DNA of 26,097 bases, from the UHGV virus genome UHGV-0386553; one strand, given 5' to 3'. This document shows positions 684-21,009 of the stretch, one piece after another. Each line of letters opens with the position of its first letter. The first letter of the stretch is position 1. Position numbers and translations under genes: made by a program. The notes under the pieces are model-generated. The model was given only the letters and a program-made list of their open reading frames with translations. It was not told where the DNA came from and searched no databases. This DNA is from a virus.

Positions 684-786
684 GTTAAATCTCCAGATAG
701 TCGCAGCACCCGTTGCGCCGCATATCTGGCTATTCTATTACCTGAAAAACCACATATGGATAGAAATACTGTGAATACGAATAGAT

Positions 787-803
787 ATTACCTTTCAGGT
801 AAT
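787..803. promoter_or_regulatory. Operator-like inverted repeat, copy 1 (ATTACC-TTTCA-GGTAAT)
   Basis: Perfect 6-5-6 inverted repeat, about 90 nt upstream of the ORF starting at 879. One of five related copies in the window. Confidence 0.55.
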
Positions 804-839
804 TTGCAAAACGTGCTGGATAGCAAACAAATTATTTGT

Positions 840-859
840 TACTGTATAAATATACAGTT
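840..859 (+). promoter_or_regulatory. LexA (SOS) box
   Basis: tACTGTATAAATATACAGtt is CTGT-N8-ACAG and matches the E. coli LexA consensus TACTGTATATATATACAGTA at 18 of 20 positions. It lies 20 nt upstream of the ATG at 879, overlapping the likely promoter. Confidence 0.7.
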
Positions 860-878
860 ATTGCATGGAGAAGATAAG

Positions 879-1136
879 ATGCAGCAGTATCACTATCCAC
901 TGGAAGACGGATTTACCGAAAGGATTCACACGCCGGGAGGCGTCAGGTCACTGGTGGAGGGATCGCACTTGATGAAATTACTCCGGGATCTCGATAAGGA
1001 TGGATTTAATGTCGATGGCCCACTTGCCGAACTGACTGCACTGATTAACTACGTCACCAGCTCACAGATGTCTATGCGGGATCTGCAAACACATCTCGAC
1101 TATTGTGCCGAACAATTACGAAAGCAAACCACATAA
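879..1136 (+). CDS. Small protein (85 aa) homologous to the C-terminal domain of the Bro-N protein; candidate SOS-controlled antirepressor
   Basis: ATG at 879 with GGAG 8 nt upstream. The track ORF 756..1136 is shortened because the LexA box lies inside the longer frame. Product MQQYHYPLEDGFTERIHTPGGVRSLVEGSHLMKLLRDLDKDGFNVDGPLAELT...RDLQTH aligns by eye with residues about 150-220 of the Bro-N protein (roughly 40 percent identity). Confidence 0.6.
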   Translation: MQQYHYPLEDGFTERIHTPGGVRSLVEGSHLMKLLRDLDKDGFNVDGPLAELTALINYVTSSQMSMRDLQTHLDYCAEQLRKQTT

Positions 1137-1159: not shown

Positions 1160-1666
1160 TTAACAGTCGAAAAATTCTGGGTCCCACAAACTTGCATCGC
1201 GCGGCATGGATTCTAACTTTTTCAGCCGCAAAATTCTGTCACACTCGACAACTAATTTTTGCTTCTGCTCGTCAATTTCTACTGTCTTATGTGCTGGTTC
1301 ATCCCAATAATCCAGAAGGAAGGCATGGCGTTCAGATGTGACCAGATAAATCACATACACGTCACTGGTTGGGATCTTTTTATGCTTGTTAGTGGTCTTG
1401 TCTTTCTTCCCAGACGCCCAGTTTTTCCAGCATTGTTCCGTACCGCTCTCACCAAACTTGTCAGTATAGTTTCCGATGTTTACATGAACGTGGCGTATGT
1501 GATATTCCAGCATCTCTTTCGGTGGATCCCGAAACAGAGTGTCCTTTCCGAAATCCTTATGATGACCGTAGCGCCAGTGATCTATGAACGCGTTTTTGAT
1601 AGGTATTAGCTCAGGGTCCTTCCCAAAAATTCCAGGGTGAACCAACCCCTGGAATTTATTCGGCAT
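1160..1666 (-). CDS. YafO-like toxin-domain protein (168 aa); putative toxin
   Basis: Track ORF 1160..1729; preferred start is the ATG at 1664-1666 (GGAG 10 nt upstream), which overlaps the last codons of the upstream gene. Motifs FGKDTLFRD, HIRHVHVNIGN and YVIYLVTSERHAFLLDYWDEPAHK recall E. coli YafO (FGRDALYDD, AHIHLAN, HLVYCQGAFDEQAWLLIAILKPEPHK). Comparison is from memory. Confidence 0.55.
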   Translation of the reverse strand: MPNKFQGLVHPGIFGKDPELIPIKNAFIDHWRYGHHKDFGKDTLFRDPPKEMLEYHIRHVHVNIGNYTDKFGESGTEQCWKNWASGKKDKTTNKHKKIPTSDVYVIYLVTSERHAFLLDYWDEPAHKTVEIDEQKQKLVVECDRILRLKKLESMPRDASLWDPEFFDC

Positions 1667-2183
1667 CGTCGTAGAGCTCCTGAGCCATATCTTCAGCAGT
1701 GCGTGCAAACATCCTGCGCGAGATTGCATGGGATTTCTCTACGGACATCTTTGGGACCTCATACATAACAAGTTGATGAGTTTTCTCATCAACTTGAAGT
1801 GGCTTGTATAAACGTTGCCACCTTTCGTTAATTTTATCCTTAAAGCCAGCGAAACCACTTTCCTGACTCTTGTATCCAAAATGAGATAAAGCCAAATTCC
1901 TTTCCATTTCATTCCTAATGTACTCAGCAAGGTTGCAGTGGAATACTTCCCCTTGTTTTTTTAGGCATGCTTCATGGTCTGTAACACTGTGACGGCTCTC
2001 ATATAAGTAAATGCGATAGGAATTTTTATTATCCTCTTCTTCATAATTTCTAATCGCATCAGCAGTTGCCATAGCTGCAGCGTAAGCGGCTGCTTCAATC
2101 ACCATCTCTTGCTCTTTTTCTTTTTCAGGCCTTTTCAAGGCAAAGCGTCTATGCCTCATCGCTGTAACTCTCTTCGTGTTCAT
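1656..2183 (-). CDS. Hypothetical protein (175 aa), basic N-terminus and acidic C-terminus; putative partner or antitoxin of the downstream YafO-like gene
   Basis: Track ORF 1656..2195 starts at TTG; the ATG at 2181-2183 gives MNTKRVTAMRH... Its 3' end overlaps the downstream start (ATGCCGAATAA). The C-terminus is acidic (ELYDDAE). No family recognised. Confidence 0.55.
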   Translation of the reverse strand: MNTKRVTAMRHRRFALKRPEKEKEQEMVIEAAAYAAAMATADAIRNYEEEDNKNSYRIYLYESRHSVTDHEACLKKQGEVFHCNLAEYIRNEMERNLALSHFGYKSQESGFAGFKDKINERWQRLYKPLQVDEKTHQLVMYEVPKMSVEKSHAISRRMFARTAEDMAQELYDDAE

Positions 2184-2195
2184 GGGCACCCCCAA

Positions 2196-2369: not shown

Positions 2370-2391
2370 GGGCACTGGCAAAATCCAGTGC
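2370..2391. promoter_or_regulatory. Perfect 8-bp-stem hairpin (GGCACTGG-CAAAAT-CCAGTGCC) of unknown role
   Basis: Seen directly; it has no flanking T-tract on either strand, so it is not a typical terminator. The motif CACTGGCAAAA recurs at 2233-2243. Confidence 0.35.
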
Positions 2392-2602
2392 CGGGATTGG
2401 CGTTCCGGATTACTACAGAGGCACATATGCCGCATAAGCGGTTTTTTTATGTGTAAAGCGCACCTATTCTATGGTGGGCTGTGTGGGGGCACCGAAAGGT
2501 GCGCCGGGTTCCTTTGTAGCCGGTTACGCCAACCCTGCACAGTTCACCACCAACCGATTGGCGTCGGTAGTGGTGATTAACCTAACTACAAAGGTGATCA
2601 CT

Positions 2603-3289
2603 ATGACTGCTAACGTAACCCCATCTGTTTTTCATTTTGAATCAGAAGCAACCATTCGAGCCATTGTTATTGATGGAAATCCTTGGTTTGTTGCCAAAGA
2701 CGTTATTAAAGCTCTTCAACTGACAAACCCCACTATGTCAATAAAATCTCTTGATGATGATGAAAGGGCTAAATTTAACTTAGGCCGTCAAGGCGAAACC
2801 AATATTATCAACGAGTCAGGCCTCTACACACTGATCCTCCGCTGCCGCGACGCAGTGACACCAGGCACTATCCCCTACCGCTTTCGTAAATGGGTTACAG
2901 GTGAGGTTCTTCCTCAGATCCGTCGCACCGGAAGTTACATTAAAAACTCGCTCCCGCAGGAAGAACGCATAAAGATGGTTGCCGACCAGGTAGCCAACGC
3001 CACGGCGTCAGCAGTAATGCAGGCGATGAAGATAGAGAACAAAACCTACAGCGCCCCGCTGAAGCCCGGCTACCGCAGCCTGATTCATTCGCCGTCTGGT
3101 GTTCTCGGCCTGACGGAGAACTCACTGCTGATGAATCTGCTGAACCAGTTACAGGAAGACGGGCACGACGTATCGGGCGCGGCGGCGGAGCTGACCACCA
3201 TGTTCTGTTACATCGTTGGTGTGAGCAAATGCCTGCGTGATATCCAGACGCACGCGGAGTACATCAACGACAAGGCAGGGTTCTTCTGA
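2603..3289 (+). CDS. Bro-N domain protein (228 aa), antirepressor-like
   Basis: ATG at 2603 with AAGGTG RBS; the track ORF starts at 2471 but the upstream part is GC-rich leader. N-terminus VFHFESEATIRAIVIDGNPWFVAKDVIKALQL...NESGLYTLILRCR matches the Bro-N signature (F.F....R.....G..WF.A.DV...L; NESGLY.LIL). The C-terminal domain is paralogous to the product of 879..1136. Confidence 0.7.
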   Translation: MTANVTPSVFHFESEATIRAIVIDGNPWFVAKDVIKALQLTNPTMSIKSLDDDERAKFNLGRQGETNIINESGLYTLILRCRDAVTPGTIPYRFRKWVTGEVLPQIRRTGSYIKNSLPQEERIKMVADQVANATASAVMQAMKIENKTYSAPLKPGYRSLIHSPSGVLGLTENSLLMNLLNQLQEDGHDVSGAAAELTTMFCYIVGVSKCLRDIQTHAEYINDKAGFF

Positions 3290-3296
3290 CGGCGGC

Positions 3297-3320
3297 GGCA
3301 CAGGGACGTGCCTTTAAATA
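3297..3320 (+). terminator. Weak terminator-like hairpin after the Bro-N gene
   Basis: GGCAC-AGGGAC-GTGCC followed by TTTAAATAATT. Short stem. Confidence 0.3.
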
Positions 3321-3332
3321 ATTCTGTACAGA

Positions 3333-3361
3333 TTGCAGACTGTGGGTGAATAGCGTACTAT
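3333..3361 (+). promoter_or_regulatory. Sigma70-like promoter of the 55-aa / 147-aa cassette
   Basis: TTGCAG (3333-3338), 17-nt spacer, TACTAT (3356-3361); operator copy 3 starts at the end of the -10. Confidence 0.45.
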
Positions 3362-3376
3362 TACCTTAAAGGTAAA
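3360..3376. promoter_or_regulatory. Operator-like inverted repeat, copy 3 (ATTACC-TTAAA-GGTAAA)
   Basis: Overlaps the -10/+1 region and abuts the AGGAGG RBS of the ORF starting at 3388. Confidence 0.55.
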
Positions 3377-3387
3377 GGAGGCGCGAT

Positions 3388-3555
3388 ATGACAGCGTTGA
3401 AAAATCGTACTCAGCACAATGAACAAGCCAAGCAATGCTGGGATGTCATTGGAAAAGTTATGCTTGGCCGCGCAAGCAAAGAGCGCGACAAGGATATGGT
3501 TTACCAGACAGGAACATCTTTCAGCGACTTCAAGGCGGCATTTCGCTCCAAATAG
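3388..3555 (+). CDS. Small hypothetical protein (55 aa)
   Basis: ATG at 3388 preceded by AAGGAGG at optimal spacing; manual translation MTALKNRTQHNEQAKQCWDVIGKVMLGRASKERDKDMVYQTGTSFSDFKAAFRSK, stop TAG at 3553-3555. Below the size cut-off of the ORF track. Confidence 0.45.
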   Translation: MTALKNRTQHNEQAKQCWDVIGKVMLGRASKERDKDMVYQTGTSFSDFKAAFRSK

Positions 3556-3575
3556 AAGCACATCAGGAGTTTTCC

Positions 3576-4016
3576 TTGAAGTTTAACATTAGAATATCTA
3601 ATAGTTTTCTACATGGGGAAAGCAACACCCCTTTCGCTGTAGACGGACCTTTCCTTACTGATGATGAAATAAAAATCATACAAAGTTTTTTAGAGGATGT
3701 TGCCAATGGAAGGGCGCTTGTTGGAAAAAACAAGCCCTCGTGGGTTGATGATAACCATGATAAAATTCCCGGCTCAGACAATTATGAGCAAGAGAATTAT
3801 TGGCATTATCATTGTGGGCCAACATGGTATCCAAACACATTTAAGAATTATACCATTAACTTAAATTTCAACCCTGGCGGAAGGCATTCTAATGAATGCA
3901 TTCATTATGCAAAAAATGATAATGAAATTGTCATTGTTGGATTTTCAAGAGAACACATACCTTTCCTTTCATCAGATGGAAACAACAATCCGCTTTTTAA
4001 TGATGAAGAAGAATAG
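3576..4016 (+). CDS. Hypothetical protein (about 146 aa), AT-rich
   Basis: Track ORF 3435..4016 overlaps the 55-aa ORF in another frame. Preferred start is TTG at 3576 with AGGAG 7 nt upstream; no in-frame ATG exists. A strong terminator follows. Sequence ...WHYHCGPTWYPNTFKNY...; no family recognised. Confidence 0.45.
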   Translation: MKFNIRISNSFLHGESNTPFAVDGPFLTDDEIKIIQSFLEDVANGRALVGKNKPSWVDDNHDKIPGSDNYEQENYWHYHCGPTWYPNTFKNYTINLNFNPGGRHSNECIHYAKNDNEIVIVGFSREHIPFLSSDGNNNPLFNDEEE

Positions 4017-4038
4017 CCCGCGCTGCGGGCTTTTTTGT
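4016..4038 (+). terminator. Rho-independent terminator
   Basis: GCCCGC-GCT-GCGGGC stem followed by TTTTTTGT, immediately after the stop at 4014-4016. Confidence 0.75.
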
Positions 4039-4108
4039 GGGCGAAACAAAAGTCAGTGCTACACTCATTGACGCCACATTGAGGTGGCTTATAGATGGAA
4101 ATTTCACA

Positions 4109-4270
4109 ATGAAAAAAGCATTTGCTGCACTGTTCGTTTTGTTGTCTCTGGTAGCTTCAACTCAGGCCTTTGCCGGTCGTTGTCAGCACGACAGCGACAC
4201 TGCTGCTGACGGCTCCCGCTGCGGTGGGCGTTCTGCGGATTCCCGCCCTGGCGGCGGTGGCATTCGTTAA
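4109..4270 (+). CDS. Small predicted secreted peptide (53 aa; signal peptide plus about 31-aa Gly/Cys-containing mature part)
   Basis: Track ORF 4037..4270 begins inside the terminator T-tract. The ATG at 4109 gives MKKAFAALFVLLSLVASTQAFA followed by GRCQHDSDTAADGSRCGGRSADSRPGGGGIR; a terminator hairpin follows. Possible promoter TTGACG (4068-4073)-N16-TATAGA. Weak RBS. Confidence 0.3.
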   Translation: MKKAFAALFVLLSLVASTQAFAGRCQHDSDTAADGSRCGGRSADSRPGGGGIR

Positions 4271-4276
4271 AAACAA

Positions 4277-4300
4277 GGCCGCGAAAGCGGCCTGTTTGAT
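4277..4300. terminator. Hairpin terminator between convergent genes
   Basis: GGCCGC-GAAA-GCGGCC perfect stem (4277-4292) followed by TGTTTGAT on the plus strand and preceded by AAAACAA; lies between the ORF ending at 4270 (+) and the ORF ending at 4300 (-). Confidence 0.6.
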
Positions 4301-5151
4301 CACTGTGCAGTTTTCGCTGATCGATTTTCAGCTCTAAATTCAAGAACCGTTTCAATATTTCTTTCCTTCAGCATATCAATAACATTTTTATTCATTTGAC
4401 TATCACTGGTTAATAACTGGTAAACGTTGCTTCTCTCTTTATCAGAGTTTTCTTTAACAGCTGCTTTGCATGCCAAATGCTTATTGAAATTTTCTACATC
4501 GCTAGTACAGGAATTTACGGCTGCTGATGAAATATCAGACGCTGAAGAAACACCATCATCCAAACGTTTTATAGCATTTTCTATACATGAGTTAAGGGAA
4601 TAAACGACAACTGAGCGATACCCTTCAGACGCACACCATTCTAAATTTCTTGAAGGATCGAGTGGTTTTACTTCGCTGGATTGAATTAACTTGTCAAAAA
4701 CTGACTTATATTCAATCTGTTTTTTATCTATAGCCCATACTTCAGTAGCTGATTTATAATTCCCCGTATGCCTATTAACATCAAATCCATGTTTTATAAG
4801 CAAATCTGCCCATGAAAGATTTATTGATTCATTGTTATGAGGCCATTTTCCTGTCAGAACCGCCCCCATAGACCCCATATATCCGCCATATGATGGTATA
4901 GCACCATGGCTCAGTAACTTCTCAGCAACCACAGGGCAATTAATTACATAAGAGGCGTAAAGCCCATTCCATAAAGCCCCTCTATAGTAATCGCCACGAT
5001 TAGGTTCTTTTAAGTCGATAGCCTTTGATAATTGTTCACACGTTTTGCATGCATCAAAGTTATCCTTATTGCATTGCAATGAACTGGCAGCTGTAGGATT
5101 TACAGAGACTATTGAAAGCACTATGCCAAAAAACAAATTTATTTTTTTCAT
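4300..5151 (-). CDS. Secreted or periplasmic protein (283 aa) with N-terminal Sec signal peptide; possible ankyrin-like repeats
   Basis: N-terminus MKKINLFFGIVLSIVSVNPTAASS is a typical signal peptide. Its ATG lies 1 nt after the stop of the 1129-aa gene (TAGGATG). AT-rich compared with the structural genes. Segments LLSHGA.. and ADLLIKHGFDVN loosely resemble ankyrin repeats (weak). Confidence 0.65.
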   Translation of the reverse strand: MKKINLFFGIVLSIVSVNPTAASSLQCNKDNFDACKTCEQLSKAIDLKEPNRGDYYRGALWNGLYASYVINCPVVAEKLLSHGAIPSYGGYMGSMGAVLTGKWPHNNESINLSWADLLIKHGFDVNRHTGNYKSATEVWAIDKKQIEYKSVFDKLIQSSEVKPLDPSRNLEWCASEGYRSVVVYSLNSCIENAIKRLDDGVSSASDISSAAVNSCTSDVENFNKHLACKAAVKENSDKERSNVYQLLTSDSQMNKNVIDMLKERNIETVLEFRAENRSAKTAQ

Positions 5152-20505: not shown

Positions 20506-20594
20506 ATCAATGACTCCGTACGCAATTAAATTATTACCAATTTAACGACATATGATTTATTTATCGTAGATAGTTGACATTTAATGCACGAATT

Positions 20595-20611
20595 ATTACC
20601 CTTCAGGTAAG
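20595..20611. promoter_or_regulatory. Operator-like inverted repeat, copy 4 (ATTACC-CTTCA-GGTAAG)
   Basis: 16 nt downstream of a consensus -35 TTGACA (20574-20579); faces the rightward tRNA / Gp49-like unit. Confidence 0.5.
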
Positions 20612-20864
20612 TAAATAGTTCATTCCGGTTATTAACCTGACTGGCTTGTCGTTAAATTGAACAGGTGGAGTGAGCTTTTATTTTGAGCAGTACGGCGTAT
20701 GGCACATGCGACGATAGCGGTCTGGATACGTTTAAGGGGCACCCTCCCTTGCTCGGGCAAACGAACCAGGTAGCCGGAATGTGCAAGTCGAGCGGTTTTA
20801 TTCCGCGCACGGGGATTCACCATCCCGGCGATTTGGTGTGACGCCTCGGAAGAGACGAGGGTAC

Positions 20865-20932
20865 AACGCTGAGAGCATTTATGGAGCCGCGACAAAGTGT
20901 GGCGCCTTAACAGGCTAAGTGCTCTCAGCGTT
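20865..20932 (+). other. 13-bp perfect inverted repeat (AACGCTGAGAGCA ... TGCTCTCAGCGTT) forming a long stem-loop abutting the tRNA 5' end
   Basis: Arms at 20865-20877 and 20920-20932 with a 42-nt loop; the tRNA starts at 20934. Possible precursor-processing structure or small RNA. Confidence 0.4.
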
Positions 20933-20933
20933 G

Positions 20934-21009
20934 TGGCATTAGCTCAGTTGGACAGAGCAACCGCCTTCTAAGAGGTTGGTCGCAGGTTCGAATCCTGCAT
21001 GCCACGCCA
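20934..21009 (+). tRNA. tRNA-Arg (anticodon UCU, reads AGA)
   Basis: Manual cloverleaf: acceptor GTGGCAT/ATGCCAC, D-arm GCTC-AGTTGGACA-GAGC, anticodon loop CTTCTAA (U33, anticodon TCT, A37), T-arm GCAGG-TTCGAAT-CCTGC, discriminator G, encoded CCA. One G-A mismatch in the anticodon stem. Resembles E. coli argU. Confidence 0.8.

What the first reader, a model, noticed from the sequence alone, without database searches (positions are those of the whole stretch)
3333..4038. Self-contained promoter-operator-55aa-147aa-terminator cassette of unknown function
A compact unit: TTGCAG-N17-TACTAT promoter, operator copy 3, an ORF with a near-perfect RBS (AAGGAGG) encoding a 55-aa protein, then 20 nt later a TTG-initiated, AT-rich ORF of about 146 aa, ended by a strong terminator. 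Neither product resembles anything I recognise. A small protein followed by a larger one under a repressible promoter is the layout of antitoxin/toxin, immunity or small defence systems.
Basis: partly seen in the sequence, partly recalled or inferred. Interest (0 to 1): 0.6.

Follow-up and report, generated by a model that had tools for sequence, protein, structure and literature searches.

The report
Prophage RelE-fold toxin-like gene pair
The cassette is real: an exchangeable two-gene cargo of an E. coli prophage whose larger protein has the fold of RelE-type toxin ribonucleases and whose small protein is its conserved partner; a published virulence gene, "orf10", is a mis-called frame inside the larger gene.

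Summary
The anatomy is confirmed. It holds a weak promoter, operator copy 3, a 55-aa ORF behind AAGGAGG, a TTG-started 146-aa AT-rich ORF and a hairpin-plus-T terminator. RefSeq annotates both ORFs.

The window is a Uetakevirus (epsilon15/phiV10-like) prophage of E. coli.

The 55-aa protein is a basic two-helix peptide with no DNA-binding domain. A homologous roughly 50-aa module lies directly upstream of the larger gene in most lineages examined.

The operator is the phage's genome-wide operator. A sister phage carries a small ORF plus a Pfam-supported YafO toxin in the same slot.

The published "orf10" deletion in phage phiv142-3 removes residues 44-97 of this protein. That mutant grew normally in LB and was less serum-resistant.

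Best reading (about 0.55): a new sequence family of RelE-fold toxin-antitoxin-like module under phage-repressor control. Toxicity and RNase activity are untested.

The parts
3333..3361 (+). Candidate sigma-70 promoter: -35 TTGCAG (3333-3338), 17-nt spacer, -10 TACTAT (3356-3361)
   Evidence: Sequence. It matches the consensus at 7 of 12 positions, below the scan threshold. It has the same register as the operator-2 promoter TTGAAA-N18-TATTAT. The flanking ~80 nt are conserved in 379 E. coli genomes, only 77 of which carry this cassette. Published data show 'orf10' rising 2^4.12 while the upstream antirepressor rises 2^1.31, which argues for a separate promoter.
3361..3375 (.). Operator copy 3, palindrome TTACCTTAAAGGTAA (TTACC-N5-GGTAA). 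It overlaps the last base of the -10 and the first base of the RBS.
   Evidence: 4 copies in the window against 0.04 expected. 10 exact copies in phage phiv142-3 against 0.00 expected, and 15 with at most 1 mismatch against 0.49 expected. Copies lie on both sides of the repressor gene.
3375..3381 (+). Ribosome-binding site AAGGAGG, 6 nt before the ATG
   Evidence: Sequence
3388..3555 (+). 55-aa basic partner protein (candidate antitoxin or inhibitor), pI 9.8
   Evidence: PGAP CDS WP_000125783. phrog_8607, function unknown. No Pfam, NCBIfam or PADLOC match. Homologues at 80-98% identity in Enterobacteriaceae and at 38% in Erwinia. Related to a ~50-aa module upstream of every family member examined. 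AF2 predicts two helices, 2-35 and 45-54, with pLDDT 69.
3565..3569 (+). Ribosome-binding site AGGAG, 6 nt before the TTG start
   Evidence: Sequence
3576..4016 (+). 146-aa RelE/ParE-fold protein (candidate toxin or ribonuclease), TTG start, pI 4.9
3706..3864 (+). Segment deleted in the published 'delta-orf10' mutant of phiv142-3. 'orf10' is an out-of-frame 52-aa call; the deletion removes residues 44-97 of the 146-aa protein.
   Evidence: Primer arms from PMC7724020 map to 3646-3705 and 3865-3924. The 'orf10' frame carries 5-11 stops in the window and in homologues.
4015..4037 (+). Intrinsic terminator: hairpin AGCCCGCGCTGCGGGCT plus TTTTTT, overlapping the stop codon
   Evidence: Terminator scan. 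Folding energy -14.6 kcal/mol.

Best explanation
The cassette is a two-gene toxin-antitoxin-like module of a previously unrecognised sequence family. It rides as exchangeable cargo in a fixed slot of a Uetakevirus prophage.

The 146-aa protein adopts the RelE/ParE toxin fold. I infer that it is a histidine-dependent endoribonuclease of the RelE/YafQ/YoeB/HigB type that cuts mRNA, probably on the ribosome.

The 55-aa protein is its cognate binding partner. It is a short basic helical peptide without a DNA-binding domain, and I infer that it holds the nuclease inactive. An ATG start with a perfect Shine-Dalgarno sequence for the partner, against a TTG start for the nuclease, would keep the partner in excess.

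Transcription is not autoregulated by the pair. It is set by the phage's global operator (TTACC-N5-GGTAA), presumably bound by the prophage repressor. The pair would then be low in a quiet lysogen and rise when the prophage is derepressed.

Shown: the anatomy, the fold (on a predicted model), family conservation, partner co-conservation, the operator regulon, the variable cargo slot, and published transcription and knockout data.

Inferred: nuclease activity, inhibition by the partner, which protein binds the operator, and the biological role.
For: Fold:
- The AF2 model has pLDDT 91.6 and pTM 0.86.
- Foldseek ranks the same families first, but weakly.

Active-site-like conservation:
- H77, H79 and H127 are invariant in 94 diverse relatives.
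- G50, N52, K53, S55, Y78, Y111 and F130 are conserved in at least 90%.
- H77 and H79 form an i/i+2 pair on a strand. H127-x-x-F130 follows the last strand. This recalls the strand pair K52/K54 and the C-terminal R81...Y87 of RelE, and H87...F91 of YafQ (sequences and residues checked). The mapping itself is my inference.

Cognate partner:
- An upstream same-strand ORF ends within about 50 nt of the start in all 18 genome loci examined, and likewise in Klebsiella, Proteus and a Vibrio filamentous prophage.
- Most of these ORFs carry the same ~50-aa module; the Enterobacter adelaidei partner (L020) does not clearly show it.
- A profile built only from the non-E. coli-type partners (E. coli and Erwinia sequences left out) scores the 55-aa protein above 1993 of 2000 shuffles, and its Erwinia homologue above all 2000.
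- All 77 E. coli genomes that carry the cassette have both genes.

Mobility typical of such modules:
- The pair sits in four kinds of prophage and also as isolated islets between housekeeping genes.

Context:
- In phage TL-2011b the same promoter-operator is followed by a 59-aa ORF plus a 181-aa protein. That protein passes Pfam's YafO_toxin threshold (26.3 bits against a cutoff of 25).

Experiment (PMC7724020):
- The region is transcribed in a lysogen. It is induced 17-fold in serum together with early genes orf40 and orf41.
- Removing residues 44-97 leaves growth in LB normal, as expected when a toxin rather than an antitoxin is lost.
Against: - No sequence-level link to any known toxin family was found. 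Pfam, NCBIfam and PADLOC give nothing. PDB sequence searches give nothing real. hhalign against YafO-like proteins and YafQ gives probability 0.13 or less.
- The fold match rests on a predicted structure. Z stays below 8 and Foldseek E-values are 0.15 or worse.
- The charge pattern is reversed relative to classical RelBE: the fold-bearing protein is acidic (pI 4.9) and the partner is basic (pI 9.8). Ribosome-dependent RNases are usually basic.
- The partner has no predicted DNA-binding domain and its model is only moderately confident.
- In Pasteurellaceae and Neisseria the partner carries a long N-terminal part with a hydrophobic, signal-peptide-like segment. That is odd for a cytoplasmic antitoxin.
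- The published mutant shows a loss of fitness in serum and roughly 2-fold lower capsule-gene transcripts. A silent toxin-antitoxin module does not predict this.
- Toxicity, complex formation and RNA cleavage have never been tested.
Confidence: 0.55

Rival explanations
1. A phage developmental endoribonuclease in the manner of T4 RegB. The RelE-fold protein would be made when the repressor is lifted. It would inactivate host or early phage mRNAs to speed the switch in gene expression. The 55-aa protein would be a timing or dosage modulator rather than an antitoxin that protects a lysogen.
For: - The cassette carries the same operator as the sites flanking the repressor gene and the early operons.
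- Its transcript rises with early genes orf40 and orf41 in serum.
- In Klebsiella lambdoid prophages the module sits in the early-right nin region, between Ea22-like genes and NinB/NinE/NinG/Q.
- RegB is a phage-encoded RNase of about 150 aa with two catalytic histidines. It has a RelE/YoeB-like structure without sequence similarity (PMC3014915).
Against: - The pair also occurs as isolated chromosomal islets with no phage genes nearby. Examples are Erwinia between accA and an mtnA-like gene, Neisseria and Kingella next to nuo-operon genes, and Actinobacillus.
- It occurs in a non-lytic filamentous prophage.
- It occurs among tail genes of Mu/P2-like prophages.
- It is optional cargo, found in only 3 of 50,697 phage records.
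Confidence: 0.2
2. A non-toxic lysogenic-conversion factor. The RelE-fold protein would bind or process specific RNAs, or act on another target, to raise K1-capsule gene expression and serum resistance. There would be no toxin-antitoxin relationship with the 55-aa protein.
For: - In PMC7724020 the deletion of window 3706-3864 lowered survival in 50% chicken serum to about 60%.
- It lowered kpsF, kpsE, kpsC and kpsM transcripts about 2-fold.
- It lowered blood and heart loads to 7-8% of wild type. Complementation was reported to restore the bacterial loads.
- The protein is acidic, unlike ribosome-binding toxins.
Against: - The authors worked with a mis-called 52-aa frame. The complementing insert is undefined because its primers are not listed.
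- The effects are modest and could be indirect, for example through altered prophage derepression or polar effects.
- The family occurs in many bacteria in which a K1-capsule or serum-resistance role is unlikely.
- Three invariant histidines and a strictly linked partner point to a controlled enzyme.
Confidence: 0.12
3. A ParE-like gyrase poison rather than a ribonuclease, neutralised by the 55-aa partner in the way ParE2 is by PaaA2.
Against: - Invariant histidines are characteristic of the RNase branch (YafQ, YoeB, HigB, RegB) and not of ParE (established knowledge of these families).
Confidence: 0.06

Closest known systems
RelE/YafQ/YoeB/HigB ribosome-dependent mRNA endonuclease toxins (RelE/ParE superfamily, type II toxin-antitoxin systems)
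   Same: - A small partner gene lies directly upstream in the same operon.
- Conserved His, Lys and aromatic residues sit on the sheet and after the last strand.
- It is carried on mobile elements.
   Different: - No detectable sequence or profile similarity.
- About 55 residues longer, with long loops inserted.
- Acidic rather than basic.
- The partner lacks a DNA-binding domain.
- The operator belongs to the phage, not to the pair.
YafO toxin family (Pfam PF13957)
   Same: - A Pfam-supported YafO protein with a small basic upstream ORF occupies the identical slot in phage TL-2011b.
- It shares an HxH motif and a histidine after the last hydrophobic strand.
- It shows the same acidic-large, basic-small charge pattern.
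   Different: - The Pfam YafO_toxin model does not match any of the 94 family members.
- hhalign aligns only 13 columns around HxH, at probability 0.13.
PaaR2-PaaA2-ParE2 three-component system of E. coli O157 prophages
   Same: - A RelE/ParE-fold toxin is paired with a roughly 60-aa helical antitoxin that has no DNA-binding domain.
- Transcription is controlled by a separate repressor.
- It is prophage-borne.
- The ParE2-PaaA2 complex is among the fold matches. The rest is from established knowledge of that system.
   Different: - No regulator gene lies inside the cassette. Control comes from the phage-wide operator.
- The toxin is closer to the RNase branch than to ParE.
Bacteriophage T4 RegB endoribonuclease
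   Same: A phage-encoded protein of about 150 aa with a RelE/YoeB-like structure, no sequence similarity to them, histidine catalysis and early expression.
   Different: - RegB has no known partner protein and belongs to a virulent phage.
- This module also lives outside lytic phages.
PfiT/PfiA of the Pf4 filamentous prophage
   Same: - A member of the present family sits in a Vibrio filamentous prophage.
   Different: A different sequence family. Any role in prophage production is untested here.

Membership tests
RelE/ParE toxin superfamily (type II toxin-antitoxin toxins) | RelE/ParE fold: two N-terminal helices packed on an antiparallel sheet | tested here: met
   [not shown]
RelE/ParE toxin superfamily (type II toxin-antitoxin toxins) | Match to a curated sequence model of a member family (ParE_toxin, YafQ, YoeB, HigB, YafO and others) | tested here: not met
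   No Pfam or NCBIfam hit for the protein or for any of 94 relatives. No PDB sequence hit. hhalign against YafQ gives probability 0.08.
RelE/ParE toxin superfamily (type II toxin-antitoxin toxins) | Catalytic residues placed as in RelE, YafQ or YoeB | tested here: inconclusive
   H77, H79 and H127 are invariant and K53, Y111 and F130 nearly so. They lie on strands and after the last strand.
RelE/ParE toxin superfamily (type II toxin-antitoxin toxins) | Cognate antitoxin gene adjacent in the same operon | tested here: met
   The 55-aa ORF ends 20 nt upstream. A homologous ~50-aa module lies upstream of most examined relatives across Enterobacterales, Pasteurellaceae, Vibrio, Aeromonas and Neisseriaceae. 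The antitoxin function itself is not shown.
RelE/ParE toxin superfamily (type II toxin-antitoxin toxins) | Antitoxin carries a DNA-binding domain and the complex autoregulates its own operator | tested here: not met
   The partner is predicted as two helices with no family match. The operator is one of at least 10 phage-wide copies and is present in phages that lack this cassette.
RelE/ParE toxin superfamily (type II toxin-antitoxin toxins) | Growth arrest by the toxin, relieved by the antitoxin | not testable with these tools
   There is only indirect evidence. A published deletion within the 146-aa gene is viable with normal growth in LB.
YafO toxin family (PF13957) | Match to the YafO_toxin profile or to YafO-like proteins | tested here: not met
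   No PF13957 hit. hhalign against the two YafO-like proteins of this phage group gives probability 0.13, covering only the HxH motif.
PaaR2-PaaA2-ParE2 three-component systems | Dedicated regulator gene next to a DNA-binding-domain-less antitoxin and a ParE toxin | tested here: not met
   There is no third gene between the promoter and the terminator. Only the feature 'small antitoxin without a DNA-binding domain' is shared.
T4 RegB endoribonuclease | Sequence or close structural relationship to RegB; GGAG-specific, S1-stimulated cleavage | tested here: not met
   [not shown]
Known anti-phage defence systems (PADLOC-DB) | Match to a defence-system protein model | tested here: not met
   No hit for either protein at E up to 1.

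The most novel reading that the evidence does not exclude
The module is a repressor-gated RelE-fold nuclease that a prophage uses to reprogramme its host. When the prophage is partly derepressed in blood or serum, the enzyme is released from its 55-aa inhibitor. It then remodels the host transcriptome, including K1-capsule expression, and raises serum resistance and systemic colonisation. This would be a toxin-fold RNase working as a virulence regulator rather than as an addiction or abortive-infection device. It would have a His-triad active site and an acidic surface that imply a target other than the ribosomal A site.
Probability: 0.15. Interest if true: 0.7.

Novelty: new member of a known kind. 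Interest (0 to 1): 0.5.

Why it matters
1. It gives a fold and a testable mechanism to two 'hypothetical' proteins carried by about 1.4% of complete E. coli genomes. Relatives occur in Klebsiella, Proteus, Erwinia, Haemophilus, Neisseria and Vibrio prophages.
2. It defines a rare family with a RelE/ParE fold, a His triad and no profile in Pfam, NCBIfam or PADLOC. The family has 121 clusters among 1.84 billion representatives. Its partner is a minimal ~50-aa module.
3. It corrects the literature. The APEC virulence determinant 'orf10' of phiv142-3 is an out-of-frame call, and the phenotype belongs to the 146-aa RelE-fold gene.
4. It shows a cargo slot whose junction is the phage operator itself. 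In at least two phages the slot holds a small ORF plus a toxin-like gene, all under the phage repressor's regulon.

Tried and rejected
- Pfam, NCBIfam and PADLOC scans of both proteins gave nothing. PHROGs gave only unknown-function families.
- PDB sequence searches with the single protein and with two profiles gave nothing real. A cytochrome c555 repeat hit is an artefact of one short helix.
- Direct homology to YafO looked plausible by eye (GK[DN]...HxH...H). hhalign did not support it, with either a single sequence or a two-sequence profile. YafQ gave the same negative result.
- Foldseek against viral predicted structures (BFVD) gave no meaningful match. The AlphaFold database library was unavailable.
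- Pfam scans of 94 distant relatives, run to catch a bridge to a known family, found none.
- Long relatives were inspected for partner-toxin fusions. They show only zinc-ribbon-like N-terminal or unrelated C-terminal extensions.
- A profile search for more partners was limited by the word index and added only two proteins.
- RNA explanations were checked. There is no Rfam family in 3250-4120 above noise. Minus-strand promoter-like hits inside the AT-rich ORF are at chance level.
- The idea that the 55-aa protein binds the operator is rejected, because phages without it keep the same operator.
- The long 193-aa reading of the second ORF (ATG at 3435) is rejected. Relatives start at the TTG-equivalent position and the extension overlaps the conserved 55-aa frame.
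- Full-text search for the motifs and PHROG ids found no paper.
Full report
**Observation**

- TTGCAG (3333-3338), a 17-nt spacer, and TACTAT (3356-3361).
- The palindrome TTACCTTAAAGGTAA (3361-3375).
- AAGGAGG (3375-3381), 6 nt before the ATG of a 55-aa ORF (3388-3555).
- AGGAG (3565-3569), 6 nt before a TTG that opens a 146-aa ORF (3576-4016).
- A 7-bp G+C-rich hairpin with a T-run (4015-4037), which overlaps the stop codon.

NCBI's pipeline annotates both ORFs, the second with the TTG start. The second ORF has 34-40% G+C next to a gene of 50-60%.

There are three weak points. The promoter matches the consensus at only 7 of 12 positions and was not picked up by the scan. The terminator's energy is not unusual against shuffles. 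No terminator separates the cassette from the antirepressor gene upstream.

The promoter is nevertheless credible. It has the same register as the strong promoter at operator copy 2. The roughly 80 nt around it are conserved in 379 of 5426 complete E. coli genomes, only 77 of which carry this cassette. In published data the cassette's transcript rises 2^4.12 while the upstream gene rises 2^1.31.

**Where it is**

The window is a prophage of the genus Uetakevirus (epsilon15/phiV10-like). The cassette is 99.7% identical to phage phiv142-3 and 100% identical to E. coli GN02461. It lies between a BRO-N antirepressor gene and a conserved 52-aa signal-peptide protein gene. The whole region sits between the tail-fibre gene and the internal virion protein genes. 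77 complete E. coli genomes carry the whole cassette, always with both genes.

**The 146-aa protein**

Pfam, NCBIfam and PADLOC give nothing, and PHROGs gives only an unknown-function family.

Relatives are few. There are 34 clusters in 5.8 billion proteins. A profile search of 1.84 billion representatives found 121 clusters at E up to 0.001.

The close family shares the motifs GKNKPSW, YWHYHCG, IHY.K and IVGYS..H.PF. Across 94 diverse members, H77, H79 and H127 are invariant. F11, G50, N52, K53, S55, Y78, Y111 and F130 are conserved in at least 90%. None of the 94 matches a Pfam family.

AlphaFold2 with the family alignment gives a confident model, with pLDDT 91.6 and pTM 0.86.
- Foldseek puts the same families first, with weak E-values of 0.15-1.

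I take the fold as established on a predicted model. The RNase branch is the closer one.

The invariant histidines lie as an i/i+2 pair on a strand (75-79) and just after the last strand (117-124), followed by F130. This resembles RelE's K52/K54 pair and its C-terminal R81...Y87, and YafQ's H87...F91. I verified those sequences and residues. The correspondence itself is my inference, because I could not superpose coordinates.

Sequence-level bridges failed. hhalign to YafO-like proteins aligned only the HxH motif, at probability 0.13. hhalign to YafQ found nothing.

**The 55-aa protein**

It has close homologues (80-98% identity) only in Enterobacteriaceae and a 38%-identical homologue upstream of the Erwinia family member. 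Looking upstream of more distant family members shows the same ~50-aa module: E-[Y/A]-K-[K/Q]-x2-D-x-V-[L/M]-L-[S/G]-R, a spacer, then G-[S/T]-S-x3-F.
- It forms the whole protein in a Vibrio filamentous prophage (50 aa) and in Proteus (62 aa).
- It forms the C-terminal end of a 102-aa protein in Klebsiella.
- It forms the C-terminal end of 160-211-aa proteins in Pasteurellaceae and Neisseriaceae.

A profile built only from the non-E. coli-type partners (E. coli and Erwinia sequences left out) scores the 55-aa protein above 1993 of 2000 shuffles, and the Erwinia protein above all 2000. That is modest on its own. It becomes convincing together with the fixed position directly upstream of the larger gene. 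The gap is 2-21 nt in Pasteurellaceae, 0 nt in Vibrio and 20 nt here.

AlphaFold2 predicts two helices (2-35 and 45-54) at moderate confidence and no globular DNA-binding domain.

**Regulation**

The palindrome TTACC-N5-GGTAA occurs 4 times in the window against 0.04 expected. In the complete phiv142-3 genome it occurs 10 times exactly against 0.00 expected, and 15 times with at most one mismatch against 0.49 expected. Copies lie in the divergent region between the Cro-like gene and the repressor gene, just downstream of the repressor ahead of the recE/recT operon, ahead of the replication genes and ahead of the terminase genes.

The repressor has two helix-turn-helix domains and no matching self-cleaving peptidase domain. 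This fits induction through antirepressors. The operator is therefore the phage's global operator, presumably the repressor's site; that assignment is inferred.

Phages that lack the cassette keep the operator. The 55-aa protein is therefore not its ligand.

The published transcript data agree. In chicken serum the cassette region (log2 4.12) rises with early genes orf41 and orf40 (4.56 and 3.68).

**A cargo slot**

In sister prophages the same promoter-operator is followed by other cargo, and always by the same 52-aa gene afterwards:
- a 59-aa ORF plus a 181-aa protein that passes Pfam's YafO_toxin threshold (TL-2011b);
- a 72-aa plus a 125-aa ORF;
- a 69-aa ORF plus a 251-aa hydrophobic, probably membrane, protein;
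- a single 210-aa protein.

The sequences diverge exactly after the operator's GGTAA. In one strain the sequence 5' of the operator differs too. The operator therefore acts as the recombination boundary.

Elsewhere the module sits in several other places:
- the nin region of Klebsiella lambdoid prophages;
- between the tape-measure and baseplate genes of Mu/P2-like Pasteurellaceae prophages;
- a Vibrio filamentous prophage;
- isolated islets between housekeeping genes in Erwinia, Actinobacillus and Neisseria/Kingella.

This kind of autonomous, promiscuous two-gene mobility is typical of toxin-antitoxin modules.

**A published experiment, re-read**

Li et al. 2020 (PMC7724020) reported that 'orf10' of phiv142-3 promotes serum resistance and colonisation by avian pathogenic E. 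coli.

GenBank's Orf10 is a 52-aa ORF in a different frame inside the 146-aa gene, which that record does not annotate. The deletion primers map to window 3646-3705 and 3865-3924. The mutant therefore lacks 3706-3864, which is residues 44-97 of the 146-aa protein, including GKNKPSW and WHYHCG. The 'orf10' frame carries 5-11 stops in the window and in homologues, while the 146-aa frame is open in all but one.

The mutant showed the following:
- normal growth in LB;
- about 60% of wild-type survival in 50% serum;
- roughly 2-fold lower kps transcripts;
- blood and heart loads of 7-8% of wild type.

The complementing insert is not defined. These data show that the gene is transcribed in lysogens and is dispensable, and that its loss has a phenotype. 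They do not show how.

**Mechanism and rivals**

Best explanation (0.55): a RelE-fold, histidine-dependent endoribonuclease held in check by its cognate 55-aa partner. This would be a toxin-antitoxin-like module whose transcription is gated by the phage repressor rather than by itself. The strong ATG/Shine-Dalgarno signal of the partner, against the TTG start of the nuclease, fits an excess of partner. Relatives use ATG or GTG at that start.

Points against this reading:
- There is no sequence link to known toxins.
- The charges are reversed, at pI 4.9 for the fold-bearing protein and 9.8 for the partner. The YafO cassette in the same slot shows the same reversal, and family pI ranges from 4.8 to 10.7.
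- The long, partly hydrophobic N-terminal parts of some partners are unexplained.
- There is no functional test.

Rivals:
- A RegB-like developmental RNase of the lytic programme (0.2). It is supported by the regulon and the nin-region location and has a precedent in T4 RegB. It is weakened by the phage-free islets and the filamentous prophage.
- A non-toxic regulator of host virulence genes, as the published phenotype suggests (0.12).
- A ParE-like gyrase poison (0.06).

**Comparison and novelty**

It works like a RelE/YafQ-type module. It passes the fold and gene-pair tests for the superfamily. It fails every sequence-model test and the 'autoregulating DNA-binding antitoxin' test.

The nearest architectural analogue is PaaR2-PaaA2-ParE2, which has a small antitoxin without a DNA-binding domain and a separate repressor. 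Here no regulator lies in the cassette.

I file it as a new member (a new sequence family) of a known kind. Interest is moderate. The biology is probably conventional. However, the family is unannotated, the active-site signature is unusual, the regulatory wiring is distinctive, and a published virulence gene is re-assigned.

Noticed in passing
window 2372-2448 and 2467-2554 (+): Rfam finds an IsrK sRNA (71 bits) and a C4 antisense RNA (84 bits) between operator copy 2 (2321-2335) and the BRO antirepressor ORF. This arrangement resembles P1/P7 immI and the Gifsy-1 isrK-antirepressor locus, here in a Uetakevirus.
   Followed up: partly
window 20573-21009 (+): A fourth operator copy (20596-20610) lies just after a perfect TTGACA. 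It is followed by about 300 nt without a credible ORF and then by tRNA-Arg(UCU) at 20933-21009. This may be an operator-controlled non-coding RNA plus tRNA transcript.
   Followed up: partly
window 1160-2195 (-): A second toxin-like pair lies on the other strand. A 168-189-aa protein that RefSeq names a YafO-family toxin is preceded by an overlapping ~175-aa ORF. It is 30% identical to the Pfam-supported YafO of TL-2011b. It does not itself reach Pfam or NCBIfam thresholds. The pair is absent from phiv142-3, so it is an insertion.
   Followed up: partly
L022 3562-4336; L024 2562-3678; L025 2562-3268; L026 2555-3273; L027 2509-3164: The slot after the antirepressor gene holds at least five different cargos in E. 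coli prophages. The breakpoint is exactly at the 3' end of the operator (GGTAA|). In strain CRKP-1 the 5' side differs as well. The operator seems to serve as the recombination boundary.
   Followed up: partly
window 3706-3864 (+); MN187550.1 6498-6656: GenBank record MN187550 annotates a 52-aa out-of-frame 'Orf10' and misses the 146-aa gene. The virulence phenotype published for orf10 (PMC7724020) therefore belongs to the 146-aa gene.
   Followed up: yes
window 4112-4270 (+): A 52-aa protein with a signal-peptide-like N-terminus (phrog_14503, 'membrane associated protein') has a plausible operator-less promoter at about 4066-4095 (TTGACG-N16-TATAGA). The same protein (WP_000708858) follows every cargo variant of the slot.
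   Followed up: no
window 756-1136 (+): The ORF behind operator copy 1 (RefSeq calls an 85-aa version) shares its C-terminal part with the C-terminal domain of the BRO antirepressor (phrog_1760 'anti-repressor', E 8e-7). It may be a truncated or stand-alone antirepressor domain under the same operator.
   Followed up: no
window 4300-5151 (-): An AT-rich 283-aa ORF with a signal peptide (phrog_6118, function unknown) occupies a position where phiv142-3 has an unrelated 118-aa gene. This is another variable cargo position.
   Followed up: no
L004-L016, L018, L019 (ORF directly upstream of the match): In Pasteurellaceae and Neisseriaceae the partner is 160-211 aa long and has a hydrophobic, signal-peptide-like N-terminal segment. 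Only its last ~50 aa resemble the E. coli 55-aa protein. What the long part does, and whether it is exported, is unknown.
   Followed up: partly
L034 (PQ189326.1) 1453-2055 (-): A 9.8-kb Vibrio cyclitrophicus filamentous prophage (Tubulavirales) carries a minimal version of the module. It has a 50-aa partner directly abutting a 149-aa relative that is 42% identical. This is one of only three phage records with the gene among 50,697.
   Followed up: partly
P0099, P0120 (distant relatives): Some distant family members carry an N-terminal Cys-rich, zinc-ribbon-like extension (CxxC...CxC). Others (P0131, P0137) carry a ~100-aa C-terminal extension.
   Followed up: no
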